Origin: Deltaproteobacteria bacterium
GTDB lineage: Bacteria; Desulfobacterota; Desulfobacteria; Desulfobacterales; JAHEIW01
Assembly: GCA_024639185.1 (NCBI GenBank)
Contig: JAHEIW010000002.1
Coordinates: 2,842 to 66,841 of the forward strand
Direction: 5' to 3'
DNA: 64,000 nucleotides
Made by a program: the position numbers and the translations under genes. This document shows positions 9,106 to 63,358 of this stretch, piece after piece. The notes under the pieces are model-generated. The model searched no databases. It saw only the letters and a list, made by a program, of their open reading frames with translations, and was not told where the DNA came from. How positions within the stretch are numbered: position 1 is the stretch's first letter; each line of letters opens with the position of its first letter.

Positions 9106-9118
9106 CTTGGAGATATGC

Positions 9119-38963: not shown

Positions 38964-38969
38964 AATTCG

Positions 38970-41648: not shown

Positions 41649-41742
41649 GTTAACGACTCTTGTATTTTTAAACGCAGATAAAGTTGGGCGATGCCGATTA
41701 AGTTAGCTTTTAAGCTGGAATTGCAGTCTACTATAACAAATA

Positions 41743-41779
41743 ATTTCGAAATTTTGCGAAAAAAATTTCGAAATTTTTC
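41743..41779. promoter_or_regulatory. Tandem palindromic candidate enhancer (UAS) sites AAATTTCGAAATTT x2
   Basis: aatttcgaaatttt (41743-41756) and aaatttcgaaattttt (41764-41779). The CG centres are 22 bp apart and lie 120 and 98 bp upstream of the GG of the sigma-54 promoter at 41867. Confidence 0.5.
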
Positions 41780-41866
41780 TAAATTTAAAATCCCATTAAT
41801 TTAAATTAAAGGCAAAAATTTAAATAACCCTTTAATTTTAAATAACTTTTCATTAGAACTCCGCAC

Positions 41867-41882
41867 TGGCATACTCCATGCT
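41867..41882 (+). promoter_or_regulatory. Sigma-54 promoter upstream of the hdrD-like / hybrid HK / EBP operon
   Basis: Plus-strand sequence TGGCATACTCCATGCT, about 165 nt upstream of the ATG at 42047. Confidence 0.7.
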
Positions 41883-42046
41883 TTGAAATAATCAATGAAA
41901 AATCCGTACCACCTTCACCTCCAAAGCAGCAATTTGTAAGACACAAATAAATTTTTGAAAGGGGTTCTGTACCGCTGTATTTTCAATAATGTGAGCCTGC
42001 CGTACAGTTTCGTTTAACCGATAAAAAACAAACCAAGGAGGCCCAA

Positions 42047-43354
42047 ATGTCTGATAAGGTCGTCAAACTGGGTGGCAAAAAGAAAAGCCGGTTTATGGAC
42101 AAGGTCATGCAGCTTCTGCCGGAAGGCGGCAATCTGAATCTTTGCCTGACCTGCGGGGCCTGTTCGTCCGGATGCCCGGCCACGGGTCTGGATGGTATGG
42201 ATCCGCGTAAATTTTTACGCATGGCCGCTCTGGGAATGGATGCTGAAATTCTCAAATCGGACTGGCCCTGGATGTGCACCCAGTGCCAGCGCTGCATTTA
42301 TGTCTGTCCAATGAAAATCGACATTCCCCAGCTGGTGTACAATGTGCGCGGAACCCGGCCGCGAGAAGAACGGCCAAAGGGGATCTTGGGTTCCTGTGAT
42401 ATGGCCCTGAAAAATGACAGCTGCAGTGCCATGGGCGCATCGCCGGAGGATTTCACCTTCGTGGTCGAAGACGTTCTGGAAGAGTACCAGGAGGCCCAGC
42501 CCGAATTTAAAGACATGCAGGCACCCATTGACAAACAGGGCGCCACCTTCTTTTTAAATCAAAATTCCAGGGAGCCGGTAACCGAACCCGATGAAATGGT
42601 TCCCCTCTGGAAAATTCTGCACCTGGTGAGCGCGGACTGGACCTATGGGAGTAAGGGCTGGGGCGGGGAAAACTACTGCATGTTTCTGGCCGACAATGAC
42701 TCCTGGGAACACATTGTGCGAACCACCGCCAAACAGGCTGACGATCTGGGCTGCAAGATATATCTGAATACCGAGTGAGGGCATGTCACTTTCTCAGTCC
42801 TGGCAGGACTGAAAAAATTCAACATTGACCACAAATTTGAGGTTAAAAATATCTATGAGTACTATGCGCAATGGATCCGCGAAGGCAAACTTCAGGTCAA
42901 TTCCGATTGGAACAAAGATCTAAAAATCAAGTTTACGGTTCAGGATCCCTGCCAGATCGTGCGCAAAAGCTACGGCGATCCCATCGCCGAAGATCTGCGC
43001 TTTGTGGTCAAAACCCTGGTGGGGGAGGAAAACTTCATTGATATGACCCCCAACCGCTCCAACAATTACTGCTGCGGCGGAGGGGGTGGTTTTCTGCAGT
43101 CCGGCTATAAACAACAGCGGTTGGAATTCGGCCGCTTGAAAGACAATCAAATTCAAGCCACCAAAGCCGACTATTGCATCGCGGGTTGCCACAATTGCCA
43201 CGCCCAGATTCACGAGCTCAGCGACCACTATGGTGGGGGCTACGGTGTCATCCATCTGTGGACCCTGATCTGTTTTGCCCTGGGTATCCTCGGTGAAAAT
43301 GAACGAGAATATCTGAACGATGATCTCAAAGAGGTGGCCGTTTATGGCGCTTAG
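42047..43354 (+). CDS. HdrD/GlpC-like Fe-S oxidoreductase (2x[4Fe-4S] ferredoxin plus CCG domains) with an in-frame UGA at 42776-42778; candidate selenoprotein
   Basis: Track ORFs 42047..42778 and 42959..43354 are in the same frame. No stop occurs between them other than this TGA. There is no ATG and no RBS downstream until far inside the second part. N-terminal motifs CLTCGACSSGCP and CTQCQRCIYVCP. C-terminal CCG motif DPC-x39-CCGGGGG...CHNC. Context is ..KIYLNTE-U-GHVTF... Confidence 0.78.
42789..42814 (+). other. Candidate bacterial SECIS hairpin
   Basis: Stem tcagtcct / aggactga (42793-42800 and 42804-42811) with G-rich apical loop GGC (42801-42803). The stem extends by ttt/aaa with a bulged C. 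The loop lies 25 nt after the UGA. Confidence 0.5.
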
Positions 43355-43368
43355 TACAAGAGAAACCC

Positions 43369-44916
43369 ATGAACACACCCACTAAATGGAAAGTCGTCTT
43401 AATCGATGACGAAGAAGACATTCGAGATGTCCTGGCCGTTGCGCTTCGGGATAGCGGGTATGATGTCATTGCGGCAGAAGATGGCGAAACCGGCTTACGG
43501 TTGTGTGAAGAGACATCCCCCCAAATTGTCGTTACCGATATCCGCATGCCGGGGATGGACGGTCTCCAAGTATTAGAGGTTTTGAAAAACAAGACCCCCG
43601 ATATAGAGGTCATTGTGGCCACTGCATTCGGGGAGATGGACGTGGCTATTCAGGCGCTGCAGCTCGATGCTTCGGATTTTATCACCAAGCCCATCAGCGA
43701 CGAAGCTTTGCATCTGGCACTGAAACGCGCCAAAGCCCGCTTTAGCTCGAAAAAGCAGCTTAGAGACTACACCGCTCTTTTGGAGCGCGAGAAGGCGGAG
43801 ACAAGTCAAGAACTTTTTAAAACCCTATCTTTCCAGAAAAATTTAATTGCGCACTCCATCGACGGCATCCTGGGATGTGACGAAAACAAGCGGGTCATCA
43901 TCTATAATAAAAGCATGGAAAAGATGCTGGGTTACGAGAGCAACGAAGTGTTGCACAAAATGACATTTAGCCATTTTTTATCGCCCGGCGAGGAGCTGAA
44001 CTTTATTGCCGAACTGGAAGATGAGCGTTACGGTGGCAAACACAAGCTACAACTTTATGAAACCACCCTGAAGGCAAAATCCGGCCGCAGGATTCCTGTA
44101 CAAGTATCGGCGACCCCCTTATTTGACCATGAAAACGTCAATGGTCTAGTTTGTTTTTTCAGAGATCTGCAGGAAACCCGAAAGCTAGAAAGAGAAATGG
44201 AGGATCAGGCGCGCATCCTGCATCAGGACAAAATGATGTCTTTAGGACGACTGGCTGCCAGTGTGGTTCACGAGATCAACAACCCGTTAGCGGGAATTTT
44301 AAATTATCTGCGGCTGATGCTCCGGATCCTGGATGAGGAGCAGCTGACAGAAGAGCGGGTGGAAAAATTTAAGCATTATTTAAAGCTGGTCGAAAATGAA
44401 ATCAATCGATGCGCACAGATTGTATCCAGCTTGCTCAATTTCTCGCGCGTATCTCCGCCGGCCTTTGGCGAAGTCCGGATTAAAGAGCTCGTCGAACGCT
44501 GTATCATTTTGAGCCAGCACAAGCTGGAACTGAGCAACATCCAGCTGAAATATAGCATCCAAAATGGCATCCCTGCTGTCCGGGGCGACTTCAACCAACT
44601 GCAGCAATGTATCATCAATCTCATATTCAATGCAATCGATGCCATGTCGGAGGGAGGAACGTTGACCCTGCAAGGACACCATGAATCTGCGACAGGAAAA
44701 GTGGTAATAGCCATAAAAGACACCGGTCAGGGTATTGCCCCTGATGCTCTTCCGTATATTTTTGAACCTTTTTTTACGACGAAAAGTCAAGCTTTTGGCG
44801 TAGGACTCGGCTTGTCGACGGTTTACGGCATTATCGAACGACACAACGGCAGTGTTGATGTCGACAGTCAACCTGGGAAAGGTGCCGTGTTTACGCTAAA
44901 AATACCGGTTCTTTGA
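43369..44916 (+). CDS. Hybrid response regulator / histidine kinase (REC-PAS-HisKA-HATPase)
   Basis: REC (VVLIDDEED...VVTDIRMPGMDG...ITKP), a PAS domain, H-box VVHEINNPLAGI, and G-boxes DTGQGI / GVGLGLS. Confidence 0.9.
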   Translation: MNTPTKWKVVLIDDEEDIRDVLAVALRDSGYDVIAAEDGETGLRLCEETSPQIVVTDIRMPGMDGLQVLEVLKNKTPDIEVIVATAFGEMDVAIQALQLDASDFITKPISDEALHLALKRAKARFSSKKQLRDYTALLEREKAETSQELFKTLSFQKNLIAHSIDGILGCDENKRVIIYNKSMEKMLGYESNEVLHKMTFSHFLSPGEELNFIAELEDERYGGKHKLQLYETTLKAKSGRRIPVQVSATPLFDHENVNGLVCFFRDLQETRKLEREMEDQARILHQDKMMSLGRLAASVVHEINNPLAGILNYLRLMLRILDEEQLTEERVEKFKHYLKLVENEINRCAQIVSSLLNFSRVSPPAFGEVRIKELVERCIILSQHKLELSNIQLKYSIQNGIPAVRGDFNQLQQCIINLIFNAIDAMSEGGTLTLQGHHESATGKVVIAIKDTGQGIAPDALPYIFEPFFTTKSQAFGVGLGLSTVYGIIERHNGSVDVDSQPGKGAVFTLKIPVL

Positions 44917-44937
44917 TCCGACCCGCGAGGATCTGAC

Positions 44938-47479: not shown

Positions 47480-50400
47480 ATGTCTGTCAGAATAGGATTT
47501 TATATCTGCCACTGTGGAATCAACATCGCTTATAAAGTGCGCGTGGAAGAGGTCGCAGCCTTTGCCCTTAAATTGAAAAACGTGATCGTCGCCCGGGATT
47601 ATAAATTTATGTGCTCGGACCCGGGTCAGGTGATGATTGAAAAAGATATAAAGGAATTGGATTTGAATCGGGTCGTAGTGGCCTCATGTTCGCCGCGCTT
47701 GCACGGGAAAACGTTCATGGGGGTCTGCGAGCGCGCCGGGATTAATCCGTATTTTTTTCAAATGGCCTCGGTACGCGAACAGGTCTCCTGGGTAACGACC
47801 GATGAAAACGAAGCCACCGACAAAGCCAAAAGTCTGGCAGCGGCGGCCATTTATCGCGTCAACTACCATGAAAGCCTCGAAGCCCGTCAAGCCCCTGTAA
47901 ATCCTGATATGCTGGTGATTGGTGGCGGTATCGCCGGAATGCAGGCCGCCCTGGACATCGCCGACTCGGGCCATCAGGTCTATCTGGTGGAAAAGGATAC
48001 CACCATCGGCGGTCACATGCTGCAGTTTGATAAAACCTTCCCCACTCTGGATTGCGCCGCCTGCATTGGAACACCCAAAATGGTCGAGGTAGCGCAAAAT
48101 TCGAATATCAAACTGCTTTCATACAGTGAAGTGACGGATGTTTCCGGATTCATCGGAAATTATACGGTTAGCGTCCGACGCAAGCCCCGCTACGTAAAAG
48201 AGGACCTCTGCACCGGGTGCGGCGAATGTGAAAAGGTCTGTCCGGTGAGCATATCGAGCTCGTGGGATGCCGGGATAGGCACTCGCAAAGCCATTGGCCG
48301 CACGTTTCCGCAAGCCATTCCGATTACCTTTAACATCGAAAAAAAGGACCGGGCACCCTGTGTGGCGGCCTGCCCTGCGGGCACGAACGTGCAGGGGTAC
48401 ATCCAATTAATCGGCCAGGGCAAGTATGCGCAGGCGATCCAACTGATCATGGAGCGCATTCCGTTACCGGGGGTGCTGGGCCGGGTGTGCCCGCATTTCT
48501 GCGAGGCACAATGCCGCCGTGTTGAAATTGATGAGCCGGTAGCCATCCGGGAATTAAAGCGCTTTGTGGCCGATCAGGTGAACCTGGAAATGCTACCACC
48601 GCCGGAAATAAATGAACGTCCGGAAAAAGTGGCCATTGTGGGATCGGGCCCGGCCGGATTGACGGCGGCTTATTACTTGCGCTTGAAAGGATATCAGATA
48701 ACTCTCTTTGAAGCGCTAAAAGAATTGGGCGGCATGCTGCGTGTCGGTATCCCCGATTATCGCTTGCCGCCAGAAATTCTGGCAAAAGAAATCGATCACA
48801 TTCTGCGACTGGGTGTCGAAACCCGCACCGGCGTCCGATTCGGCGACGATTTCAGTATGAAGGATCTTGAACAGGAAGGTTTTTCAGCTGTTTTTCTCGC
48901 AGTGGGTGCCCATCGGTCGACCAAACTCGGCATCAACGCTGAAATGGACGCTGATGGAATTATCGATGCCCTGCAATTTTTAAGAAATATTAATCTTGGC
49001 TCTCGGACATCCCCTGGAAATGATGTGGTGGTTATCGGCGGCGGCAATGTGGCCATCGATGCGGCGCGGTCGGGCAAACGGTCAGGCACACACAAAATGA
49101 CGGTGGTATACCGCCGTTCAAAAGATGAGATGCCGGCCTATGCTGAAGACCTACAGGGCGCCATCGAAGAAGGAATTGACTTTTCATATCTAACGGCGCC
49201 GGTCCGCGTCCGGGTGAATAACGGCAAGGTTGTCGGGTTGGAATGTTTGCGCACCGAACTGGGCGCACCGGATGAAAGCGGCCGGCGCCGACCGGTTCCG
49301 CTGGAAGGATCCGAATTTCTGATCTCATGTGATGCCATCATTTCGGCGATCGGCCAGCGCGTCGATACCTCATGGGCCGATCAGATACCGGTTCTGAAAT
49401 GGTCGCAACGGGGAACGCTCGAAGTGGATCCTGACACCATGCAGACATCTGTGCCCCATGTATTTGCCGCCGGGGACGCCGTCAGCGGCCCGGCCACCGT
49501 CATTGAGGCCGTTGCTGCGGGACATCGGGCGGTCAAGGCCATAGAGCATTACCTGGCCGGCGAGGAAATGGAGGAAGCCCATGTACAAAAGGCCACCGCG
49601 AATCCCGGCACTCAAAATTGGCAGGCAATCCCCGAAAATGTTTCGAAGGCAGATCGCGCTGTGTCACGCCAAATCGTGGCTGCAAAGCGGATAACTTCTT
49701 TTGAAGAAATCGAACAGGGATTCTTAAAGGCTGAAGCCAGACAAGAAGCCCAGCGCTGTCTGAACTGCGGCATCTGTAGCGAATGCATGGAATGCGTCCA
49801 GGTCTGCGAGCCGCAGGCCATTGACCATTCCATGAAAGAAGAAGAAATAACCCTGGAGGTCGGCAGCATCATTATGGCCACCGGATACGACACCATGGAT
49901 CCCACACCTTTAAAACCCTATGGCTACGGTGTATATCCGAATGTTTTCACGGCGCTTGAATTCGAACGCCTGAGCAATGCAACCGGTCCCACCGGTGGAA
50001 AAATTCTGATTCGTGACGAAAACGGCGAATTCACGCGAACCCCGCAAAGTGTCGCTATCCTTCACTGTATCGGCAGCCGCGATGTGAATTACCACGAATA
50101 CTGCTCACGGGTGTGCTGTATGTATGCACTTAAATATACCCATCTTATCAAAGAAAAAGTGGGACATGATACCCAAGTGTATGATTTTTACATTGACATG
50201 CGCTGTTTTGGTGAGGGCTATGAGGAATTTTTCCGCCGCTGCCAGGAAGAAGGAACCATTTTCATACGCGGTAAGGTTGCCGAGATCACAGATAATGCCA
50301 TCCATCCCGGCGAAACGGGAAAACTCATTGCGCTGGGTGAAGACACGTTGCTTGCAAAGAAATTGCGGGTTCCGGTCGATATGGTGATTCTATGCACGGC

Positions 50401-50890
50401 TATGGAGGCCCGCGAGGATGCCGCCGATATGGGCCGCATTTTGGGTGTCAATTTAGGAGCCGATGGATTCTTTCTTGAAGAGCATCCGAAGCTGGGGCCG
50501 CTAAATACCGCAACCGACGGCGTATACCTTTGCGGGTGCTGTCAGAAACCATTGGATATCCCGGATACGGTTTCGCAGGCAAGCGGTGCAGCTGCGAAGG
50601 CCCTCTCGCTAGCTACCCGCGGAACGGTAGATATTTCACCGACAATATCCTGGATCGACCCGGACATTTGCATTGGATGCCAGACCTGCATTGAACTGTG
50701 TCCATACTCGGCGATTGAATTTGACAAGCGACGTGGTGTCTCGGTCGTCAATGAGGCGGTTTGCAAGGGATGCGGTAGCTGTTCGGCACATTGCCCCAGC
50801 GGAGCAGCTCGCAGCCGCCATTTTCAAAGCAGACAGATTTTTGCCGAAATTGATGGAATTTTAGAAACCGTCTCCCGGCTGGGACGGTAA
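47480..50890 (+). CDS. hdrL: HdrL-type large HdrA homologue: HdrA flavoprotein with an inserted GltD/NfnB-like NAD(P)H-binding module
   Basis: HdrA N-terminal domain (FYICHCGINIA...VVASCSPRLH). FAD fold MLVIGGGIAGMQAALDIA. HdrA signature HCIGSRD...YCSRVCCMY. Several CxxCxxCxxxCP ferredoxin motifs. Residues of about 290-700 look like the glutamate-synthase small subunit (GRVCPHFCEAQC; VAIVGSGPAGLTAAYYL; GGMLRVGIPDYRLP). Confidence 0.9.
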   Translation: MSVRIGFYICHCGINIAYKVRVEEVAAFALKLKNVIVARDYKFMCSDPGQVMIEKDIKELDLNRVVVASCSPRLHGKTFMGVCERAGINPYFFQMASVREQVSWVTTDENEATDKAKSLAAAAIYRVNYHESLEARQAPVNPDMLVIGGGIAGMQAALDIADSGHQVYLVEKDTTIGGHMLQFDKTFPTLDCAACIGTPKMVEVAQNSNIKLLSYSEVTDVSGFIGNYTVSVRRKPRYVKEDLCTGCGECEKVCPVSISSSWDAGIGTRKAIGRTFPQAIPITFNIEKKDRAPCVAACPAGTNVQGYIQLIGQGKYAQAIQLIMERIPLPGVLGRVCPHFCEAQCRRVEIDEPVAIRELKRFVADQVNLEMLPPPEINERPEKVAIVGSGPAGLTAAYYLRLKGYQITLFEALKELGGMLRVGIPDYRLPPEILAKEIDHILRLGVETRTGVRFGDDFSMKDLEQEGFSAVFLAVGAHRSTKLGINAEMDADGIIDALQFLRNINLGSRTSPGNDVVVIGGGNVAIDAARSGKRSGTHKMTVVYRRSKDEMPAYAEDLQGAIEEGIDFSYLTAPVRVRVNNGKVVGLECLRTELGAPDESGRRRPVPLEGSEFLISCDAIISAIGQRVDTSWADQIPVLKWSQRGTLEVDPDTMQTSVPHVFAAGDAVSGPATVIEAVAAGHRAVKAIEHYLAGEEMEEAHVQKATANPGTQNWQAIPENVSKADRAVSRQIVAAKRITSFEEIEQGFLKAEARQEAQRCLNCGICSECMECVQVCEPQAIDHSMKEEEITLEVGSIIMATGYDTMDPTPLKPYGYGVYPNVFTALEFERLSNATGPTGGKILIRDENGEFTRTPQSVAILHCIGSRDVNYHEYCSRVCCMYALKYTHLIKEKVGHDTQVYDFYIDMRCFGEGYEEFFRRCQEEGTIFIRGKVAEITDNAIHPGETGKLIALGEDTLLAKKLRVPVDMVILCTAMEAREDAADMGRILGVNLGADGFFLEEHPKLGPLNTATDGVYLCGCCQKPLDIPDTVSQASGAAAKALSLATRGTVDISPTISWIDPDICIGCQTCIELCPYSAIEFDKRRGVSVVNEAVCKGCGSCSAHCPSGAARSRHFQSRQIFAEIDGILETVSRLGR

Positions 50891-50908
50891 AAAAACAAGG
50901 AGCGCCTT

Positions 50909-51331
50909 ATGCAAGATTTTGAACCGACGATTATTGCCTTTGTCTGTAACTGGTGCACATACACGGCAGCAGATCTGGCCGGCACCTCCAGGCTGACCTA
51001 TCCTAAAAATGTGCGTTTGATTCGGGTGATGTGCACCGGCATGGTGGATCCTCAGTACGTCATCAAAGCTTTTTTGGAGGGGGCCGACGGCGTGCTGATC
51101 AGTGGCTGTCATCCGGGTGACTGTCATTACATCAATGGCAATTATAAAGCCCGCCGGCGCATTAAGCTTTTAAAGGAAATTCTGCCCCAATTCGGTTTTG
51201 AGCCCGAGCGGCTTCGATTAACCTGGATCGGCGCCAGCGACGGGATTCAATTTGCCGAAATTATGGATGAACTTGTCGACCAGGTCAAGGCTTTGGGACC
51301 CAATCAGGCAAAGCTCAAAATGGTCATTTAA
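50909..51331 (+). CDS. mvhD: Methyl-viologen-reducing hydrogenase delta subunit homologue
   Basis: 140 aa. IIAFVCNWCTYTAADLAG...VMCTG...ISGCHPGDCHY, the MvhD [2Fe-2S] Cys pattern. Confidence 0.9.
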   Translation: MQDFEPTIIAFVCNWCTYTAADLAGTSRLTYPKNVRLIRVMCTGMVDPQYVIKAFLEGADGVLISGCHPGDCHYINGNYKARRRIKLLKEILPQFGFEPERLRLTWIGASDGIQFAEIMDELVDQVKALGPNQAKLKMVI

Positions 51332-51444
51332 CTTTGGGTAATGGATATTGGGTATTCGGTATTGGTGGCCTAACACAAAAAGATGCAAACAGCAAACAAC
51401 TCGTACCAAATACCCAGTACCGAAAATCAAAATTGGAGATACCG

Positions 51445-52590
51445 ATGTCGATTACGGGAAAAATCGAGGTGCAAGACAAAGATATTTTAGGAGCTTTGGG
51501 AGCGTTTTTTAAGCGCGTTTTGGAAACAGATGACATCAACGCCATTTTGGTGCCGCAGCATCTTTCAATGAAAAATATGGTTATGCCGACGCTGGTAACA
51601 GATCCCGAACAGCTCAATGGTGTAGATCCCCTAGCACCGGCATTTCCCATGAATGCCGCTAAAATTGTTTCGCGTCTGACCCGTAAACAGATGGGATCTA
51701 AAATTGCGGTGGTGTTGCGCCCCTGCGAAATCCGAGCCTTTGTTGAACTGGTCAAACTCAAGCAAGGTCAAATGGACGAAGTGATGCTCATCGGCATGGA
51801 TTGCCTGGGCGCATTTCAAAACAAAGATTACCTGCAATATGTTGACAGGCACGGGGACAAATCCACCGAGCGCTTCTATCAAGACGTTTTGGATGGGAAG
51901 CAGGCAGACATAGAAGGTGCTACTTTGGCTTCAGCGTGTATGTCTTGCGAAAATCCGGTGCCCACAAATGCAGACATCCTGATCGGTCTATTTGGCGTTG
52001 AGATCGCGGATTATCTGTTGGTACAATCGCAAAGCAAACGCGGAACAAATCTTTTAAATCAGATGCACATGACCGAAATCCCAGAACCAGCCTCACGCCA
52101 GGATGCCATCACCGCCATCGTTGCGCAGCGCATTGCCTGCCGAGATGAAATGTTTGTCAGAACACGCGCAGCTACCGATAGCCTGGAAAAAATGACGGCC
52201 TATCTGGCCAATTGCGTCAATTGTTATAACTGCCGGGTGGCATGCCCGGTGTGTTACTGCAAGGAATGTGTTTTTGTAACCGATGTGTTTAACCATGATC
52301 CGTCTCAATACTTGCGATGGGCCAATCGGAAAGGCGTCATTAAAATGCCAACCGATACGCTCTTTTTCCATCTGACCCGCTTGGCCCATATGAGCACGGC
52401 CTGTGTGGGGTGCGGCCAATGTTCAAATGCCTGTCCAAATGGTATTCCGGTGATGGAGCTCTTTCGCACCATATCACAAAGCACCCAGCGCGCATTTGAA
52501 TATGAGGCCGGAAAAAGCATCCAGCAGGAACCGCCCCTTTCGGTATTTTATGAGGATGAATTTCCAGAGGTGGTTGGCATCAACAGTTAG
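51445..52590 (+). CDS. FrhB/FdhB-like Fe-S flavoprotein (F420-hydrogenase beta-subunit-like N-domain plus 2x[4Fe-4S])
   Basis: IAVVLRPCEIRAFVEL resembles the FrhB_FdhB N-domain. Ferredoxin motifs CVNCYNCRVACP and CVGCGQCSNACP. ATG at 51445 with GGAGA 6 nt upstream. The track start at 51334 lies in a structured spacer. Confidence 0.72.
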   Translation: MSITGKIEVQDKDILGALGAFFKRVLETDDINAILVPQHLSMKNMVMPTLVTDPEQLNGVDPLAPAFPMNAAKIVSRLTRKQMGSKIAVVLRPCEIRAFVELVKLKQGQMDEVMLIGMDCLGAFQNKDYLQYVDRHGDKSTERFYQDVLDGKQADIEGATLASACMSCENPVPTNADILIGLFGVEIADYLLVQSQSKRGTNLLNQMHMTEIPEPASRQDAITAIVAQRIACRDEMFVRTRAATDSLEKMTAYLANCVNCYNCRVACPVCYCKECVFVTDVFNHDPSQYLRWANRKGVIKMPTDTLFFHLTRLAHMSTACVGCGQCSNACPNGIPVMELFRTISQSTQRAFEYEAGKSIQQEPPLSVFYEDEFPEVVGINS

Positions 52591-52628
52591 CAAATTATTT
52601 AATAAACCTATGAAAGCGGGTGTTGCAT

Positions 52629-55600
52629 ATGGCTAGAAAAATCGGCAAAGCGCTGGTCGTCGGTGCTGGTATCGCCGGTATAAGAGCTGCTTTGGATTTA
52701 GCAGAGTCCGGTTATGGCGTCATTCTGATTGATAAGTCCCCGCATATAGGCGGGATCTTAAGCCAGCTCGATTACCAGTTCCCCACCGACCATTGCGGGA
52801 TGTGCAAAATGCTTCCGCTGGTGGACCGGGATGCCAGTTCGCAGTATTGTCTGCGCAAGGGTCTGTTTCATGAAAACATCGACATTACGTTATCCACAGA
52901 GCTTGTTTCCATCAAAGGAGAACCCGGCCAATTTCAGGTGATGCTGAAAGAACATCCGAACTGGGTGACCTCAGATCTTTGCACAGGCTGTGGCGAATGC
53001 GTTGACGCTTGTCCGATTGAGGTTCCGGATGAATTCAATTCCGGCCTGGGAACCCGTAAAGCAATTTATCTGCCGATACCCCATGCCATTCCAAATCCCT
53101 ATGTCATTGATTACACTGTGTGCACCCGCTGCGGTGCATGCGAAGAGATGTGCCCGACAGGCGCCATTAAAATTCCCGAAAAGGCCCGCGGGGACTTCCG
53201 CATTTTAGTTGTGGATGATGAACTGATCGTACGCGATTCATTAAAAGAATGGCTTGCGGAAGAGGGTTTTGCAGTCGATATGGCTGCATCCGGTCAGGAA
53301 GCGATAGAACAATTGTCTCAACAGACCTACCAGCTGATGCTTTTAGACTTAAAAATGCCCGAAATGGATGGTGTTGAGGTCTTGCAAAAAACCATTGATG
53401 AATTTCCCGATCTGGATGTCGTCATGATGACCGCCTACGCAACCGTGGAAACCGCTGTCGAAGCCATGAAAATCGGGGCCCTGGATTATCTGGTAAAGCC
53501 TTTTGATCCGGAAACCCTGATCCCCATGGTCAAACGCTTATATCAAGAGCGGGCTGCCTCTGAAGGTCGCCAGATTGAAGTTGGCGCAGTCGTGTTGTGC
53601 GGGGGCACCGCTTTTTTTGATCCGGCCAGCGGCAAAAATACGTTTGGTTATGGAATATTTCCCAACGTCGTCACCCACCTGGAATTCGAGCGGCTTTTAA
53701 GCGGTACCGGTCCTTATCACGGACAGCTTGTCAGACTGGGCGACGGCCAAGCGCTCCAAAAAATTGCCTGGATCCAATGTGTCGGTTCCAGAGACCTGCA
53801 GCTGGAAGCCGATTACTGTTCCAACATCTGCTGCATGGCAGCGATCAAGCAAGCACTGGTGGCCAAACAAAAGGCCCGCGGAAATTTAGATACAACCATT
53901 TTTTACATGGACATGCGCACCTTTGGAAAATCCTTCGAACGCTACCGGCAGCAGGCCGAGGCAAAACATGGCGTTCGGCTCAAAAGGGCGCGGATTCATA
54001 CGGTGGACCGGCATGCCGCTTGCGGCGATTTGATTCTGCGCGGCGTGGATCTGGCAGGACAATCCAGCGAAGAACGTTTCGACATGGTGGTTCTGACTGT
54101 CGGTCAACGGCCGATCGGTGGCGCAAATGACCTATCCGAATTGGCAGGAATAGAGCTAAATTCACTTGGTTTCGCGCAAACCGAAGCTTTTTCGTTAACG
54201 CGGTCCTCACGAAGCGGAATTGAACTGGGGGGATCATTTACGGGTCTAAAGGATATCAGTGATTCTGTTGTACAAGCGTCTGCCGCCGCTTTAAATGCCT
54301 CACGAATTCTGCATGCCGCCGGCGGCAGTCTGGCCCTAAAGTCCTCGTCATTCATACCATCGACCGATGTGCTGCGAGAAGTCCCCCGGATCCTGGTGAT
54401 CGTTTGTACCTGCGGTGTTCGGCTCCCGGCAGCCGTCGACACCCAAAAAGTCATCGAACAGCTCACGGCTGATCCGCTGGTTGATGGCGTCGATTTTGTC
54501 GAGCAAACCTGTACGGCCGCTGGATGGGAACATCTTGAAAAACGGGTCGCTGAAAGCAAACCAAATCGGATCCTGATCGGATCCTGCCTGCCATATGTCT
54601 ATAAGCGCAAGATTAAAGATCTCGGCCAGCGAATCGGTCTGAATCCGAGCCTCATCGACGTGGTCGATCTTGCATCTGAGTACCAGAAACACGTTTTAGA
54701 AAAAGAGCCCAAGGAGTTTATTACCCAAAATGTAACTTCCAAACTGGAGATGGGCATCGCCAGGCTAAAATGGATTGAACCGTCAGCACCCCCGGACATT
54801 CCGGTCATCCAGCGGGCACTGGTGATCGGTGGCGGCGTTGCCGGTATGACGGCCGCTTTGGCAATCGCCGATCATGGTTTTCAGGTGGATCTGGTGGAAC
54901 AAAATGATCGATTGGGTGGCAACCTCAACTGGTTGGAGCGAACGCTGGATGGGCACCAGCCCACAGAGTTGCTGCAACAAACGCGTACATCCGTAGAAAA
55001 ACATCCTCAAATACAGGTGCATACCCAAACGCGTGTGGTGCGCTCAACAGGCGAAGTAGGCCACTTTCAGACCACCATAACCGATGCGCAAAACACTGAG
55101 CAAACCCTGGATCATGCGGTCACCATATTGGCGACCGGTGGCAGGGAGGCCGCGACCTCCGCTTATGGGTACGGGACAAGCCCGGTCATTGTCACACAGA
55201 AGGAACTGGAAGAAAAACTGTCAAACCAACCATTGGATGCCACCCAATTACATTCAATCGCCATGATCCAGTGTGTGGATTCGCGCGAGGAGCCCCGAAA
55301 TTATTGCAGCCGCGTATGTTGCGCGAATGCTTTAAAGCACGCCCTGCACCTGAAAGAAATAAATCCTGACATTCAAATTTATATTCTCTATCGGGATATG
55401 ATGACCTACGGCTTTGACGAATCCTATTATACCCGGGCCCGCAAGGCCAACGTGATCTTCATCCAATATCAATTCACTGAAAAACCGCAGGTCATGGCTA
55501 ATCAAGAAAGTGTGCGCGTAACCGTCATTGATTCCATTATAAATAGGCCCATACAAATCGAGGCGGATCTTCTGGTGCTGGCCACCGGCATCATTCCCAA

Positions 55601-56054
55601 TCTGCCGACCCAGCTGGCTGAAACCTTCGGCGCCTCTGTGGATGAGGACGGCTTTTTTCAGGAGGCCGACAGCAAGTGGCGGCCGGTGGATTCACTCAAA
55701 GAAGGCGTTTTTGCCTGTGGCTTGGCCCACTCGCCGCGCAACATTGCCGAATCGATTACGACTGCCGAGGCAGCCGCCCAGCGTACGCTTAGAATATTAG
55801 GGCATGAGCGTCTGTCGGCGGGAAAGGTGGTCGCCAATGTTCATCATAGCCTTTGCAGTTTATGTGAACGCTGTATTGATGCCTGTCCTTATCGGGCCCG
55901 CAGCATTGATATGGATCAAGACAGAGTGCTGGTGAATCCGGCCATGTGCCAGGGATGCGGCTCCTGTGCCGCCATTTGCCCCAATGGGGCTTCGGTCCTG
56001 GAAGGATTTTTGGAACAACAAATGCTGGAAATGATCGACGCGGCCATCGGTTAG
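52629..56054 (+). CDS. hdrA: Tandem HdrA-like flavoprotein with an embedded CheY-like receiver domain (REC at about 53200-53575)
   Basis: Module 1: ALVVGAGIAGIRAALDLA, ferredoxin insert CTGCGECVDACP/CTRCGACEEMCP, then RILVVDDELIVRD...LMLLDLKMPEMDG...VVMMTAYA...YLVKPF, then IQCVGSRD...YCSNICCMA. Module 2: HdrA N-domain (ILVIVCTCGVRL...LIGSCLPY), ALVIGGGVAGMTAALAIA, IQCVDSRE...YCSRVCCAN, and a C-terminal 2x[4Fe-4S]. Confidence 0.9.
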   Translation: MARKIGKALVVGAGIAGIRAALDLAESGYGVILIDKSPHIGGILSQLDYQFPTDHCGMCKMLPLVDRDASSQYCLRKGLFHENIDITLSTELVSIKGEPGQFQVMLKEHPNWVTSDLCTGCGECVDACPIEVPDEFNSGLGTRKAIYLPIPHAIPNPYVIDYTVCTRCGACEEMCPTGAIKIPEKARGDFRILVVDDELIVRDSLKEWLAEEGFAVDMAASGQEAIEQLSQQTYQLMLLDLKMPEMDGVEVLQKTIDEFPDLDVVMMTAYATVETAVEAMKIGALDYLVKPFDPETLIPMVKRLYQERAASEGRQIEVGAVVLCGGTAFFDPASGKNTFGYGIFPNVVTHLEFERLLSGTGPYHGQLVRLGDGQALQKIAWIQCVGSRDLQLEADYCSNICCMAAIKQALVAKQKARGNLDTTIFYMDMRTFGKSFERYRQQAEAKHGVRLKRARIHTVDRHAACGDLILRGVDLAGQSSEERFDMVVLTVGQRPIGGANDLSELAGIELNSLGFAQTEAFSLTRSSRSGIELGGSFTGLKDISDSVVQASAAALNASRILHAAGGSLALKSSSFIPSTDVLREVPRILVIVCTCGVRLPAAVDTQKVIEQLTADPLVDGVDFVEQTCTAAGWEHLEKRVAESKPNRILIGSCLPYVYKRKIKDLGQRIGLNPSLIDVVDLASEYQKHVLEKEPKEFITQNVTSKLEMGIARLKWIEPSAPPDIPVIQRALVIGGGVAGMTAALAIADHGFQVDLVEQNDRLGGNLNWLERTLDGHQPTELLQQTRTSVEKHPQIQVHTQTRVVRSTGEVGHFQTTITDAQNTEQTLDHAVTILATGGREAATSAYGYGTSPVIVTQKELEEKLSNQPLDATQLHSIAMIQCVDSREEPRNYCSRVCCANALKHALHLKEINPDIQIYILYRDMMTYGFDESYYTRARKANVIFIQYQFTEKPQVMANQESVRVTVIDSIINRPIQIEADLLVLATGIIPNLPTQLAETFGASVDEDGFFQEADSKWRPVDSLKEGVFACGLAHSPRNIAESITTAEAAAQRTLRILGHERLSAGKVVANVHHSLCSLCERCIDACPYRARSIDMDQDRVLVNPAMCQGCGSCAAICPNGASVLEGFLEQQMLEMIDAAIG

Positions 56055-56118
56055 CTAATTCGTTATTGGTTATTTGTTATTCGTCGCAACGGCATCCCGC
56101 TGCAAAAAGGATGTTTTC

Positions 56119-56691
56119 ATGAAAACAGCAACAAATTTAGATGTATATTACGAAGCCGTTTCAGCTTCTGATAAGCTGGCACCCATTCAGGAAATGATAC
56201 GCGCCTGCATGCAATGCGGCACGTGCACCGGCAGCTGCCCCAATGCGTTTGCCATGGATTACACGCCCCGTCAACTCTGGCGTCTGGTATTGCTCGGACA
56301 AAAGGACGAAATTTTCCGGAGCAAAACATTTTCCTTATGCTCAGACTGTTACCTCTGCACGCTTCGCTGCCCGCGCGGTCTTCATCTGACGGAAGCCATG
56401 GATGCACTGAAACAGATAGCCGCCGGCGAAAATAGGGCTGAGTACAAATACAGTATCTTATTTAACAAAAATTTCATGCAAAGTGTTCGGCGGCACGGCC
56501 GCGTCAAGGAAATGGAATTTATGACGAATTATTTTACAGCCGTGAAAAATCCTCTGGTACCCTTCCGATTTGCTTCCTTGGGGATCAAGCTGATTGCGAA
56601 AGGAAAAGTTTCTGTCAGCTGGCTTCCCAAAGCACGGTTTCCTTTAGAGAAGATTTTTCAAAAAGTAAACGAGTTGGAGACACCCCCATGA
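56119..56691 (+). CDS. hdrC: Heterodisulfide reductase subunit C-like protein
   Basis: CMQCGTCTGSCP and CSDCYLCTLRCP, the two [4Fe-4S] motifs. The ATG at 56119 is preferred over the TTG at 56074. Confidence 0.85.
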   Translation: MKTATNLDVYYEAVSASDKLAPIQEMIRACMQCGTCTGSCPNAFAMDYTPRQLWRLVLLGQKDEIFRSKTFSLCSDCYLCTLRCPRGLHLTEAMDALKQIAAGENRAEYKYSILFNKNFMQSVRRHGRVKEMEFMTNYFTAVKNPLVPFRFASLGIKLIAKGKVSVSWLPKARFPLEKIFQKVNELETPP

Positions 56692-57563
56692 GATATCTAT
56701 ATTATCCCGGATGTTCCCTTGAGGGCACCGCTATTGAATACAACCTTTCCACCCGCTGCATCATGCACATGGCGGGGGTCGAACTGGTTGAAATAGATGA
56801 CTGGACCTGCTGCGGTGCCAGCGCTGCTGAGGCCACAAGCGATTTGCTTTCGCTGGCCCTGCCGGCGAGAAATCTCGCCATTGCCGAAAAAATGGAAGAT
56901 GTCGACGAAATTCTGGTCCCCTGCAGCGCCTGTTATCTGAATCTAAAAAAAGTAGAAGAAAAGACCCGTGGAGACCAGCGGATGATGAATACCTTAAACA
57001 CAATTTTAGCCGAAGAAAATCTTCGCCTACAGGGTCGGGCTGTTGTCCGGCATCTGCTGGATGTCATCGCCAATGATTTAGGTGCGCAAAAGATTCTGTC
57101 ATTGGTGAAGCATTCCCTCAGAGGCCTCATCATTGCCCCTTATTATGGCTGTCAATGTTTGCGGCCTTATACCGTATTTGATGACCCGGAGGTGCCGCAA
57201 TCCATGGAGCCGATTATTGAGGCCACCGGCGCAAAGGCCCACCATTGGGACATGGGGGCAACCTGCTGCGGCGCTTCTCATATGAATACCCGCATGGATG
57301 TGGGCATCGAGCTCGTCGCCCATATTTTGGAGGGGGCCAAAGGAGCCGATGCCATTGTTACCGTATGCCCGATGTGTCAGATGAATCTTGAGGCCCATCA
57401 GCGCAAAATTTCCCATTGGCGCCATGCAGAATTGGACATAACCATACTTTATCTGCCGCAGCTATTGGGACTGGCATTCGGTATTTCTGAAGAAGAGCTG
57501 GGGCTAAATTTGAATCTGTCCGCCAGTGACGCTTTTTTGGAGAAAATACAAAAGGCAGCCTAG
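56688..57563 (+). CDS. hdrB: Heterodisulfide reductase subunit B-like protein (two CCG domains)
   Basis: YYPGCSL...WTCCGAS...PCSACYLNL and YYGCQC...ATCCGAS...VCPMCQMNL. The ATGA overlap with the hdrC stop suggests translational coupling. Confidence 0.9.
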   Translation: MRYLYYPGCSLEGTAIEYNLSTRCIMHMAGVELVEIDDWTCCGASAAEATSDLLSLALPARNLAIAEKMEDVDEILVPCSACYLNLKKVEEKTRGDQRMMNTLNTILAEENLRLQGRAVVRHLLDVIANDLGAQKILSLVKHSLRGLIIAPYYGCQCLRPYTVFDDPEVPQSMEPIIEATGAKAHHWDMGATCCGASHMNTRMDVGIELVAHILEGAKGADAIVTVCPMCQMNLEAHQRKISHWRHAELDITILYLPQLLGLAFGISEEELGLNLNLSASDAFLEKIQKAA

Positions 57564-61091: not shown

Positions 61092-61294
61092 ACATCACCC
61101 TGGTTCTATATGGATCAGCCGTAAAATAATATCATGAACAGGCCACTCAAATTATGCACATTTTGCTCCCATCATGCCTAAACGGCTGTCTTGGGAGCAC
61201 CCAGTCGCCTTTTGAACCTAAAAAGGCGTATACGATATCGTGAATTTTTTCTTTGAGAAAAATTGACTAAATGACCGGCGAAGGAGGAATAAAA

Positions 61295-61609
61295 ATGAAT
61301 AAGCCGCTTAAATATATGGTGGTCCATGATGACCCGCACATTCCATGGGAGAAGGTTGAAGAGAACTGGGCCAAACTGGCCAATGTCGAACACGCCACCT
61401 GGGTCCGAACCTGTTACAACAAGGAAAAAGGTGTTCGCTATTGTGTTTGGTTGGCACCGAATGAAAAGGTGTTGGCTACGATATTTGATGAGCTTCATAT
61501 CTCATACGAGTCTATCATTGAAGTCGAAGAAACTGTTCCCGATCTGTGGGGTAAGAAATGGCAGGAACATCTGAAGGCTGAAGCAACAGCGGACACACTT
61601 GGTTTCTAA
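61295..61609 (+). CDS. DUF4242-like small protein
   Basis: MNKPLKYMVVHDDP...VRYCVWLAPNEKVLATIFDE resembles the SCO4226/DUF4242 pattern (from memory). Strong RBS GAAGGAGGA lies before the ATG at 61295. Confidence 0.55.
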   Translation: MNKPLKYMVVHDDPHIPWEKVEENWAKLANVEHATWVRTCYNKEKGVRYCVWLAPNEKVLATIFDELHISYESIIEVEETVPDLWGKKWQEHLKAEATADTLGF

Positions 61610-61669
61610 TGGCACTACCCAGTAACTTGCTCAACACTAAACCCATGGGTGTTGTCAAATGGTGATTCT

Positions 61670-61690
61670 GCCCGGCATGAATTGCCGGGC
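61670..61690 (+). terminator. GC-rich hairpin downstream of the DUF4242-like gene (non-canonical terminator candidate)
   Basis: gcccggca-tgaat-tgccgggc, an 8-bp perfect stem. There is no adjacent T-run. Confidence 0.3.
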
Positions 61691-61845
61691 GGGTCACGAC
61701 TTTAAAAAAATATGAAGCGCCTGAGATGTATTGATCGAAGGCATTAGTCTTTCTACAGCATTTTATCAATCGAATTCGAACCCTTAACAAACGATGGTCT
61801 CATAACAATCCTCAACGCTTCATCGCAAAACATGTCAGAGGAGGA

Positions 61846-62163: not shown

Positions 62164-62216
62164 GGCTGCCTTTGACTTTTGAGAAAATTGGCAAACGATA
62201 GTCAATAATTGATGTC

Positions 62217-63302: not shown

Positions 63303-63358
63303 TAACCGCATCCGAATGAGATGAGTCCAGTTCTGAAATGACCAAAAAGGAGATAAAC

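What the first reader, a model, noticed from the sequence alone, without database searches (positions are those of the whole stretch)
42047..43354. In-frame UGA with downstream hairpin in an HdrD/GlpC-like Fe-S oxidoreductase: probable selenocysteine
The ORFs at 42047..42778 and 42959..43354 share one frame, and the only stop between them is the TGA at 42776-42778. The downstream part has no ATG until deep inside it and no RBS. That part holds the CCG motif (DPC-x39-CCGGGGG...CHNC) needed to complete an HdrD-type protein.

Sixteen nt after the UGA begins a hairpin, tcagtcct-GGC-aggactga, with a G-rich loop 25 nt from the UGA. This fits bacterial SECIS geometry.

The local context ..IYLNTE-U-GHV.. 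aligns by eye with the (V/P)C-x-x-C element that ends the CCG domains in the HdrB of this same window (ILVPCSAC, VTVCPMC). If that holds, Sec would replace a cluster or active-site Cys.
Basis: partly seen in the sequence, partly recalled or inferred. Interest (0 to 1): 0.7.

Follow-up and report, generated by a model that had tools for sequence, protein, structure and literature searches.

The report
Selenocysteine codon in HdrD-like iron-sulfur reductase
The in-frame TGA is almost certainly a selenocysteine codon with its own RNA hairpin signal, placing selenium at the catalytic cysteine position of an iron-sulfur disulfide reductase; this family of selenoproteins has been known since 2004, so the finding is correct but not new.

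Summary
42047..43354 (+) is one 435-codon reading frame, interrupted only by the TGA at 42776-42778.

All 120 best full-length homologues (62-76% identical) have Cys at that column, in an invariant E-C-G-H motif. The 80 closest genomic loci (75-92% identical; Desulfobacterales, each from a different species' representative genome) all carry TGA there. Each also has the hairpin UCAGUCC(U/G)-GGC-(A/C)GGACUGA beginning 16 nt downstream.

Four of the hairpin's base pairs show compensatory changes. Its synonymous sites are nearly frozen, while codons on either side vary freely at third positions. A tandem Cys paralogue lacks the hairpin.

The protein has two ferredoxin-type [4Fe-4S] motifs and one complete CCG motif, so it is an HdrD/HmcF/TmcB/DsrK-like enzyme. 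The Sec sits in the T/GE-C-GH motif. [quoted passage not shown]

This is the known "Fe-S oxidoreductase (GlpC)-like" selenoprotein family, whose Sec motif is UGH. Public annotation truncates the gene at 243 aa.

The Sec machinery, selenium incorporation and the substrate could not be tested here.

The parts
42047..43354 (+). Complete selenoprotein gene: 435 codons plus a TAG stop. It encodes an HdrD/HmcF/TmcB-like Fe-S oxidoreductase. Public annotation truncates it to the 243-aa product of 42047-42778.
   Evidence: The cluster holding the 243-aa product has 1721 members, and many of the members read are also 243 aa.
42036..42041 (+). Shine-Dalgarno sequence AGGAGG, 5 nt upstream of the ATG.
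   Evidence: Read directly from the sequence.
42776..42778 (+). UGA codon 244, read as selenocysteine.
   Evidence: Cys at this column in 120/120 close homologues and in 36/36 diverse full-length representatives. TGA in 80/80 closest genomic loci.
42770..42784 (+). Active-site motif T-E-U-G-H (aa 242-246). It corresponds to the T/GECGH motif of DsrK, HmcF and TmcB.
   Evidence: Literature (PMC10861901; bioRxiv 10.64898/2026.08.25.746951).
42794..42812 (+). bSECIS hairpin inside the coding region: 8-bp stem (42794-42801 / 42805-42812) and a GGC apical loop (42802-42804).
   Evidence: Fold. Conserved in 80/80 loci. Four pairs show compensatory changes, and 0/500 shuffles reach the observed covariation score. 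Third-position entropy is 0.35 within the hairpin codons against about 1.16 beside them. The hairpin is absent from the Cys paralogues.
42134..42322 (+). HdrC-like ferredoxin domain with two CxxCxxCxxxC(P) motifs (C33/36/39/43 and C77/80/83/87), predicted to bind 2 x [4Fe-4S].
   Evidence: Pfam Fer4_8 and related models at aa 30-92. PDB HdrC chains match at E 1e-12 to 1e-15.
42935..43210 (+). The single complete CCG domain (C302, C342, C343, C381, C384), the predicted site of a non-cubane [4Fe-4S] cluster.
   Evidence: Pfam PF02754 at E 3.4e-10. HdrB alignments. All five Cys are invariant in distant relatives.
41866..41881 (+). Putative sigma-54 (-24/-12) promoter TGGCATACTCCATGCT, about 180 nt upstream of the ATG. 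Inferred only.
   Evidence: The same motif lies upstream of 11/79 orthologues, against about 1.1 expected. rpoN and three sigma-54 activators are in the window.
47480..57563 (+). Probable partner genes, inferred from synteny only: HdrL-type HdrA/GltD fusion, MvhD, FrhB-like protein, HdrA carrying a receiver domain, HdrC and HdrB.
   Evidence: In L004, L005, L008, L043 and L066 the Sec gene lies inside this cluster, between the FrhB-like gene and the HdrA gene. About 26 of 80 loci have MvhD and/or HdrA-like genes adjacent.

Best explanation
42047-43354 is one gene for a 435-aa selenoprotein.

During translation, the UGA at codon 244 is decoded as selenocysteine. This happens because the 8-bp, GGC-looped hairpin 16 nt downstream acts as a bacterial SECIS element, recruiting SelB-GTP-Sec-tRNASec. 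This step is inferred from conservation and covariation; it was not shown experimentally.

The product is a cytoplasmic HdrD-type iron-sulfur disulfide reductase with three parts:
- an HdrC-like domain with two [4Fe-4S] clusters, which relays electrons;
- a degenerate second CCG lobe in which only one residue survives, in the motif T-E-(C/U)-G-H.

By analogy with DsrK Cys329/His331, Sec244 is the non-ligating nucleophile that attacks the sulfur substrate (a disulfide, persulfide or trisulfide). It would carry the substrate as a Se-S adduct next to the cluster, which reduces the adduct in one-electron steps, with His246 acting as proton relay. Selenium would make this step faster and the adduct easier to reduce.

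Electrons probably come from neighbouring HdrL/HdrA-MvhD flavoprotein modules. This is inferred from synteny. The substrate is unknown.
For: The gene is a single unit.
- There is one internal stop, a strong RBS only at 42047, and no start signal for the distal part.
- The top 120 of 2568 homologues are full-length, about 435 aa, and cover 94-100% of the query.

The UGA column is Cys in homologues.
- 120/120 close homologues have Cys there, in an invariant E-C-G-H.
- 36/36 diverse full-length representatives from 50%-identity clusters also have Cys.

The UGA is conserved.
- 80/80 nearest loci, each from a different species' representative genome, have TGA. They include Desulfocicer vacuolatum DSM 3385, Desulfobacter latus AcRS2 and Desulfobacterium sp. 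N47.

Translation continues past the UGA.
- Entropy at codon positions 1/2/3 is 0.29/0.22/1.07 over the 60 downstream codons.

The hairpin behaves as a SECIS element.
- It is an 8-bp hairpin with a G-first loop.
- 90% of cells are paired, against 35-52% when the partner columns are slid.
- Four pairs have double changes. Pair 32-36 is U-A in 37 sequences and G-C in 35.
- 0/500 shuffles reach the observed covariation score.
- Third-position entropy drops to 0.35 within the hairpin codons.
- Cys paralogues lack the hairpin.

The family is known.
- The Fe-S oxidoreductase(-like, GlpC) selenoprotein has Sec motif UGH (PMC13188914; PMC1794560).
- A Sec-containing hdrD4 is reported in Desulfobacterium autotrophicum (PMC2702500).

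The role of the residue is documented in relatives.
- The GECGH Cys329 of DsrK and the T/GECGH Cys of HmcF/TmcB are described as the sole survivor of the second CCG motif (PMC10861901).
- In the cryo-EM structure this Cys is non-ligating and persulfidated, with His331 nearby (bioRxiv 10.64898/2026.08.25.746951).
- A profile alignment to HdrB 8rvv_B places the column on the first Cys of the N-terminal CxxC.

Fold: the AF2 model matches M. smegmatis EtfD 9ojn (E 2.4e-8) and HdrB 5odc_B.
Against: - No selA, selB, selD or tRNA-Sec gene lies in the 64-kb window, so Sec-decoding capacity of this genome is inferred rather than shown.
- There is no experimental evidence of selenium incorporation for this clade.
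- Rfam has no matching model.
- The free-energy z-score of the 65 nt after the UGA is unremarkable at -0.8. Only the local hairpin stands out.
- The catalytic role is transferred from DsrK, which differs in two ways: it has Asp instead of the last CCG Cys, and it is membrane-bound. This protein scores far below the NCBIfam cut-offs for HmcF, TmcB and DsrK.
- The alignment to HdrB around the Sec column has only moderate posterior probability.
- In the window the gene is separated from the hdr cluster by regulators, so the proposed partnership rests on synteny elsewhere.
Confidence: 0.9

Rival explanations
1. The UGA is a genuine stop. Either the locus encodes a 243-aa ferredoxin-like protein plus a separately initiated C-terminal CCG protein, or it is a pseudogene or an assembly error.
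For: Gene callers annotate it this way. The 243-aa product is in the public collection, in a cluster of 1721 members. A GTG exists at 42959.
Against: - The TGA is retained at the same column in 80/80 loci, one from each of 80 species genomes, so it is not an error or a recent pseudogene.
- The 60 codons between the TGA and the GTG show a clear coding signature in frame, and they align without a gap to full-length Cys homologues.
- There is no RBS or ATG for the distal part.
- A 243-aa product would lack every CCG ligand.
Confidence: 0.03
2. The UGA is recoded through the SECIS/SelB-type route, but the inserted residue is cysteine (a selC*-type tRNA-Cys system) or another residue rather than selenocysteine. 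This is stated from my own knowledge of reports of such systems in some anaerobes; it was not checked in the paper library here.
For: The data show recoding plus an RNA signal, but they cannot identify the inserted amino acid. No tRNA gene is present in the window to examine.
Against: - The family is catalogued as a Sec family with the UGH motif.
- Related Desulfobacteraceae encode the full selABCD machinery and many selenoproteins (PMC2702500).
- The co-existence of tandem TGC (Cys) and TGA paralogues is the pattern known for Sec/Cys isoenzyme pairs. It would serve no purpose if both inserted Cys.
Confidence: 0.04
3. Sec244 is a direct ligand of an iron-sulfur cluster, either a Se-Fe bond to the non-cubane cluster or part of a second cluster, rather than a free nucleophile.
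For: - The column is homologous to a ligand of the distal non-cubane cluster of HdrB.
- PMC10861901 speculated that the Cys might bind the cluster, to explain the as-isolated EPR signal.
- C211 is invariant in this subfamily.
Against: - The other four ligand positions of that second motif are lost; relatives mostly have N or G/A at N173 and C211.
- The DsrK cryo-EM structure shows the equivalent Cys non-ligating and persulfidated.
- The conserved neighbouring His fits acid-base catalysis.
Confidence: 0.15

Closest known systems
Fe-S oxidoreductase (GlpC)-like selenoprotein family. Sources: Kryukov & Gladyshev 2004, as cited in PMC13188914; Zhang et al. 2006, PMC1794560; Olavius symbionts, PMC1976440; marine Deltaproteobacteria, PMC8318568.
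   Same: One Sec in a U-G-H motif, Cys homologues at the same column, deltaproteobacterial hosts, and frequent linkage to hdrA and mvhD/frhD genes.
   Different: Nothing essential differs. In the window the gene heads its own unit next to two-component and sigma-54 regulators, rather than sitting in an hdrA-frhD-frhG-frhA operon. PANTHER PTHR43551 membership could not be tested.
HdrD4, the Sec-containing soluble HdrD of Desulfobacterium autotrophicum HRM2 (PMC2702500)
   Same: A soluble fusion of HdrC-like and HdrB-like domains, containing Sec, from the Desulfobacteraceae, in a genome rich in hdrA/hdrL-mvhD loci.
   Different: The D. autotrophicum locus was not among the 80 best loci.
[quoted passage not shown]
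   Same: Two ferredoxin clusters, one CCG motif, and a T/GE-C-GH motif with a conserved His two residues after the Cys.
   Different: - Scores are far below the equivalog cut-offs: 164 vs 750, 157 vs 735 and 110 vs 400.
- No adjacent membrane cytochrome b or cytochrome c partner genes are present.
- It keeps Cys384 where DsrK has Asp500.
- It has Sec instead of Cys.
HdrB/HdrC of methanogen-type heterodisulfide reductase (PDB 5odc, 8rvu, 7bkb)
   Same: The fold and the ferredoxin plus CCG architecture. Sec244 is homologous to the first Cys of the N-terminal CxxC of HdrB.
   Different: HdrB has two complete CCG motifs and two non-cubane clusters, and it cleaves the disulfide between them. Here the second motif is reduced to a single Sec. 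A canonical HdrC/HdrB pair is encoded separately in the window at 56074-57563.
M. smegmatis EtfD (PDB 9ojn), equivalent to HdrF-type membrane Fe-S oxidoreductases
   Same: It is the best structural match (Foldseek E 2.4e-8, TMq 0.63). Some Cys homologues lie next to etfAB genes (L082).
   Different: EtfD is a 742-aa membrane protein with a cytochrome b domain. This protein has no such domain. Sequence identity is 16%.

Membership tests
Bacterial selenoprotein gene (UGA-Sec with a bSECIS element) | In-frame UGA aligned with Cys in homologues | tested here: met
   120/120 close homologues have Cys, as do 36/36 distant full-length relatives.
Bacterial selenoprotein gene (UGA-Sec with a bSECIS element) | UGA conserved in orthologues, with an intact downstream frame under purifying selection | tested here: met
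   80/80 loci carry TGA. Codon-position entropy downstream is 0.29/0.22/1.07.
Bacterial selenoprotein gene (UGA-Sec with a bSECIS element) | Stem-loop immediately downstream, with the apical loop roughly 16-37 nt from the UGA and G in the loop. These bSECISearch-type criteria are recalled from my own knowledge. | tested here: met
   An 8-bp stem at 42794-42812 with a GGC loop starting 24 nt after the UGA. The loop G at alignment column 33 is invariant.
Bacterial selenoprotein gene (UGA-Sec with a bSECIS element) | Evolutionary support for the RNA structure | tested here: met
   Four pairs have compensatory changes. The covariation score is 0.158, against 0.058 for shuffles and 0.024 or less for slid versions. 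Synonymous sites within the hairpin are constrained.
Bacterial selenoprotein gene (UGA-Sec with a bSECIS element) | selA, selB, selC and selD present in the genome | not testable with these tools
   None are in the window. The rest of the 109,864-bp contig and of the genome could not be reached.
Bacterial selenoprotein gene (UGA-Sec with a bSECIS element) | Selenium demonstrated in the protein | not testable with these tools
   This needs 75Se labelling or mass spectrometry.
Fe-S oxidoreductase (GlpC)-like selenoprotein family | A single Sec in a U-G-H motif | tested here: met
   The window reads N-T-E-U-G-H. The review table lists the motif as UGH.
Fe-S oxidoreductase (GlpC)-like selenoprotein family | Fe-S oxidoreductase architecture: 4Fe-4S dicluster domain plus Cys-rich CCG domain | tested here: met
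   Pfam Fer4_8 and related models plus PF02754.
Fe-S oxidoreductase (GlpC)-like selenoprotein family | Membership of PANTHER PTHR43551, or similarity to the reference WP_174406253.1 | not testable with these tools
Fe-S oxidoreductase (GlpC)-like selenoprotein family | Linkage to hdrA and frhD/mvhD genes | tested here: met
   MvhD and/or HdrA-like genes are adjacent in about 26 of 80 loci. In the window they lie 4 kb downstream.
DsrK/HmcF/TmcB-type HdrD-like enzymes (single non-cubane cluster) | Exactly one complete CCG motif (CXnCCGXnCXXC), plus a T/GECGH remnant of the second | tested here: met
   C302, C342, C343, C381 and C384 are present, with TE-U-GH as the remnant. The other second-motif positions are N173 and C211.
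DsrK/HmcF/TmcB-type HdrD-like enzymes (single non-cubane cluster) | Reaches the NCBIfam equivalog cut-off for DsrK, HmcF or TmcB | tested here: not met
   Scores are 110 vs 400, 164 vs 750 and 157 vs 735. It is a relative, not an orthologue.
DsrK/HmcF/TmcB-type HdrD-like enzymes (single non-cubane cluster) | Encoded with a membrane cytochrome b partner (DsrM/HmcE/TmcC) | tested here: not met
   The neighbours are histidine kinases, sigma-54 regulators and HdrA/MvhD-type genes.
Methanogen-type HdrD/HdrB | Two complete CCG motifs, binding two non-cubane clusters | tested here: not met
   Only one CCG domain is found. Of the five positions of the second motif, only Sec244 survives across relatives (C211 is conserved only within this close subfamily).
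GlpC (anaerobic glycerol-3-phosphate dehydrogenase subunit C) | Reaches the NCBIfam GlpC cut-off | tested here: not met
   Scores are 29.6 vs 278 and 23.2 vs 279.9. 'GlpC' in the selenoprotein literature is only a COG-level label.

The most novel reading that the evidence does not exclude
The Sec-HdrD may be the catalytic subunit of an uncharacterised soluble complex restricted to Desulfobacterales. The complex would be built from an NAD(P)H-linked HdrL, MvhD, an FrhB-like protein and an HdrA that carries a phospho-receiver domain. A flavin-based, phosphorylation-regulated module would then feed a single non-cubane cluster plus a selenol, which reduce a sulfur carrier such as a DsrC-type tri- or persulfide.

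The natural Sec substitution would independently confirm that the T/GECGH cysteine of DsrK-type enzymes is a redox-active nucleophile. It would also provide a 77Se spectroscopic handle on that mechanism. Neither DsrK paper mentions selenocysteine.
Probability: 0.2. Interest if true: 0.5.

Novelty: new member of a known kind. Interest (0 to 1): 0.27.

Why it matters
There are three practical consequences.

1. **Annotation.** The gene is mis-annotated as a 243-aa 'ferredoxin'. The cluster of that truncated product has 1721 members. No full-length product of the Sec clade appeared among the best hits in 5.8 billion protein clusters. Metabolic reconstructions of Desulfobacterales therefore miss this enzyme systematically.

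2. **Mechanism.** Sec lies exactly at the cysteine that 2024-2026 work on DsrK proposes as the catalytic, non-ligating residue. This is natural evidence that the position does nucleophilic redox chemistry. It also suggests that Sec/Cys isoenzyme pairs exist for it; tandem copies are seen in L081 and L067.

3. **Scope.** It does not change what is known about selenoproteins, because the family and its UGH motif were catalogued in 2004-2006.

Tried and rejected
- **Rfam.** The gathering-threshold scan of the whole window and the permissive scan of 42600-43000 gave nothing relevant. Rfam appears to have no model that captures this bacterial SECIS.
- **Whole-segment fold.** The fold of the 65 nt after the UGA is not exceptional (z = -0.8). 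Only the local hairpin is, so I relied on comparative evidence instead.
- **hhalign against the window's own HdrB.** It aligned only the C-terminal CCG domain (probability 17%). The N-terminal equivalence came from a PDB profile search with the C-terminal 276 residues and from the literature.
- **The search of protein representatives.** I repeated it with database homologues only.
- **AF2 model.** It is of medium quality (pLDDT 73.8), with low confidence at the cluster loops, and coordinates are not exposed. Distances from residue 244 to the cluster and to C211 could not be measured.
- **The look-up of encoding contigs.** It found no record for two window proteins. The nearest relatives are Desulfobacterales MAGs at 92% identity.
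- **Other in-frame TGA candidates in the window.** All are ordinary gene ends or overlapping non-coding frames. For example, 44914 is the stop of the RR-HK gene, and 7853 ends a 2',3'-cyclic phosphodiesterase. No second selenoprotein gene was found.
- **Rejected readings.** I rejected split genes, a pseudogene and a sequencing error, for the reasons given under the rival explanations.
Full report
**Observation**

Reading 41900-43500 and translating 42047-43354 (+) gives a 435-codon frame with one internal stop, the TGA at 42776-42778. The two listed ORFs, 42047..42778 and 42959..43354, are in the same frame. AGGAGG (42036-42041) precedes the ATG at 42047. The distal ORF's GTG lies 60 codons after the TGA and has no RBS.

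The hairpin tcagtcct-ggc-aggactga is at 42794-42812. It starts at the 16th nt after the UGA. Perfect 8-bp hairpins with 3-8 nt loops occur 17 times in 64 kb, so about 0.007 is expected in a given 26-nt interval.

**What the protein is**

Pfam finds a 4Fe-4S dicluster domain (aa 30-92) and one CCG domain (aa 297-388). The best NCBIfam matches are HmcF, TmcB and DsrK, all far below their equivalog cut-offs. GlpC and HdrB/HdrC score weaker still.

PDB profile searches hit only HdrC, for the N-terminal part, and HdrB, for the C-terminal part. An AlphaFold2 model (pLDDT 73.8) matches M. smegmatis EtfD (9ojn, E 2.4e-8) best, and then HdrB chains.

The protein is therefore a soluble HdrD-type fusion of HdrC-like and HdrB-like modules with a single complete CCG motif (C302, C342, C343, C381, C384).

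**Is the UGA a Sec codon?**

- *Homologues are single and have Cys.* A search of 5.8 billion protein clusters gave 2568 homologues. The best 120 are single proteins of mostly ~435 aa (412-532), 55-76% identical (62-76% apart from one 532-aa hit), covering 94-100% of the read-through product. All 120 have Cys at the UGA column, within an invariant E-C-G-H. The homologues are neither truncated nor split.
- *The nearest relatives keep the TGA.* A scan of one genome per species (GTDB) found 591 relatives. The 80 best are 75-92% identical, closer than any full-length protein in the protein database. All 80 have TGA at the column. They include Desulfocicer vacuolatum DSM 3385, Desulfobacter latus AcRS2 and Desulfobacterium sp. 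N47.
- *Public annotation truncates the gene.* The truncated 243-aa product sits in a 90%-identity cluster of 1721 members, and many of the members read are also 243 aa. This explains why the Sec clade is invisible as full-length proteins.
- *Translation continues past the UGA.* Across 82 sequences (loci plus the window), codon-position entropy in the 60 codons after the UGA is 0.29/0.22/1.07. That is the signature of a translated frame.

**Is the hairpin a SECIS element?**

The hairpin is present in all 80 loci. On the 80-sequence alignment:
- 90% of cells pair, against 35-52% when the partner columns are slid by 1-3 positions;
- four of the eight core pairs show compensatory double changes;
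- the loop-closing pair is U-A in 37 sequences and G-C in 35, and the other three pairs show G-C/A-U, A-U/U-A and U-A/G-C swaps;
- 0/500 shuffles reach the observed covariation score.

The U-A to G-C swap changes an amino acid (Leu CUG to Arg CGG) together with a synonymous GCA to GCC change that restores pairing (read from the alignment). Third-position entropy falls to 0.35 in the seven hairpin codons, against about 1.16 on either side. Selection therefore acts on the RNA as well as on the protein.

Cys homologues have Trp where Sec forms have Leu or Arg. The Cys paralogues in L081 and L082 cannot form the hairpin, whereas the Sec paralogue 500 nt downstream of the Cys copy in L081 has it unchanged.

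The first loop base (G at alignment column 33) is invariant, and the loop lies 24 nt from the UGA. These values fit the usual bSECIS criteria, which I recall from my own knowledge of the bSECISearch model.

**Evolution**

A rough neighbour-joining tree puts all 82 Sec forms in one group. Only two Cys proteins, P0001 and P0002, are nested inside it, and the other 118 Cys forms lie outside. P0002 is the tandem Cys copy in L081 and still reads ...RAGLEKF, like the Sec forms. This suggests one Cys-to-Sec origin with occasional reversion. The tree is crude, so this is tentative.

**Role of the residue**

In 36 diverse full-length representatives (clusters at 50% identity or below), the column is always Cys. 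E-C-G-H is nearly invariant, and the five CCG cysteines are invariant. C211 is conserved only in the close subfamily.

A profile alignment to HdrB (8rvv_B) puts 'nteCGHs' on 'TECNGC', the CxxC of the N-terminal CCG domain. The posterior probability there is moderate.

PMC10861901 states the following about DsrK Cys329:
- it lies in a GECGH motif;
- it is the only surviving cysteine of the second CCG motif;
- HmcF and TmcB carry it as T/GECGH;
[quoted passage not shown] - Cys329 is non-ligating and was modelled as a persulfide;
- His331 is a likely proton relay;
- the proposed mechanism has Cys329 take over the sulfur moiety before reduction at the cluster.

The window's N-T-E-U-G-H is that same motif. 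Sec therefore replaces the catalytic nucleophile rather than a cluster ligand, most probably. Neither DsrK paper mentions selenocysteine. Unlike DsrK, which has Asp500, this protein keeps the last CCG cysteine (C384).

**Context**

The gene is followed by three regulators: a receiver-PAS-histidine kinase, a PAS-sigma54 activator and a receiver protein. After them come:
- an HdrL-type HdrA/GltD fusion;
- MvhD;
- an FrhB-like protein;
- an HdrA carrying a receiver domain;
- HdrC and HdrB;
- further kinases.

In L004, L005, L008, L043 and L066 the Sec gene sits inside that cluster, between the FrhB-like gene and the HdrA gene. In about 26 of 80 loci MvhD and/or HdrA-like genes adjoin it. This supports an HdrA/HdrL-MvhD electron-input module, but only by inference.

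A sigma-54-type motif (TGGCATACTCCATGCT, 41866-41881) lies upstream. It recurs upstream of 11/79 orthologues, against about 1.1 expected.

No sel genes or tRNA-Sec are in the window. The rest of the genome could not be reached.

**Comparison with what is known**

'Fe-S oxidoreductase (GlpC)' is one of the 25 bacterial selenoprotein families listed in Zhang et al. 2006. That paper records five members, found next to hdrA-frhD-frhG-frhA operons in Syntrophobacter fumaroxidans (PMC1794560).

A 2026 review lists it as 'Fe-S oxidoreductase-like protein', motif UGH, one Sec, predicted with high confidence and function uncharacterised (PMC13188914). The family has also been reported in Olavius symbionts and in marine Deltaproteobacteria. 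Desulfobacterium autotrophicum has a Sec-containing hdrD4 (PMC2702500).

The window gene matches this family in motif, architecture, host lineage and gene linkage. It is not an orthologue of DsrK, HmcF, TmcB or GlpC, because it falls below their cut-offs and lacks a membrane partner. It is not a two-cluster HdrB/HdrD either.

**Verdict**

The feature is a genuine, strongly supported Sec codon with its SECIS element in an HdrD-like reductase, but it belongs to an already catalogued selenoprotein family.

Two points add modest value. The truncated annotation of this clade is systematic. The Sec position coincides with the recently proposed catalytic cysteine of single-cluster DsrK-type enzymes.

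Three things remain unshown: the presence of the Sec machinery in this genome, selenium incorporation into the protein, and the identity of the substrate.

Noticed in passing
window 52620-56054 (+): An HdrA2-like flavoprotein of 1144 aa with a response-regulator receiver domain inserted at about aa 190-320. This would put an electron-bifurcation-type subunit under possible direct phosphorylation control. Homologues (59-68% identical) follow the Sec gene in L004, L008, L043 and L066.
   Followed up: partly
window 47480-52590 (+): An HdrL-type fusion of HdrA with a GltD-like NAD(P)-binding module (1136 aa). It is followed by MvhD (50909-51331) and an FrhB-like Fe-S protein (51334-52590) that matches no NCBIfam model. 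All are Cys forms, with no in-frame TGA.
   Followed up: partly
window 41866-41881 and 41744-41778 (+): A sigma-54-type -24/-12 motif, TGGCATACTCCATGCT, lies 180 nt upstream of the Sec gene. The same motif is found upstream of 11/79 orthologues, against about 1.1 expected. An AT-rich stretch further upstream has two TTTCGAAATT palindromes that could be activator sites.
   Followed up: partly
L081 8001-9320 and 9822-11150; L078 about 6000-7300 and about 7940-9250; L067 about 6001-7299 (+) and about 743 (-): Paralogue pairs occur close together: a Cys copy next to a Sec copy in L081 and L067 (Desulfocicer vacuolatum), and two Sec copies in L078. This resembles the Sec/Cys isoenzyme back-up pairs known for hydrogenases.
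   Followed up: partly
P0001, P0002 (L081 8001-9320): These are the only Cys forms nested within the Sec clade in the NJ tree. P0002 keeps the Sec-type peptide ...RAGLEKF and a degraded hairpin, which looks like a fossil SECIS from a Sec-to-Cys reversion.
   Followed up: partly
window 34410-36440 (-); L021 2857-; L048 8427-: A prismane/CO-dehydrogenase-family gene (676 aa) lies 6 kb upstream in the window. Its 80-87% identical homologues sit directly next to the Sec gene in L021 and L048.
   Followed up: no
L082 1989-6315 (Desulfonema magnum CP061800.1): A Cys homologue (P0034) is encoded next to etfB/etfA and a DAO-family flavoprotein. Some members of the family may therefore take electrons from ETF, which is consistent with EtfD being the best structural match.
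   Followed up: no
window 37575-46677 and 57650-63829: There is an unusually dense set of two-component and sigma-54 regulators around the hdr genes: a Cache-HAMP kinase, two sigma-54 activators, several receiver or hybrid kinases, and rpoN itself at 2131-3567.
   Followed up: no
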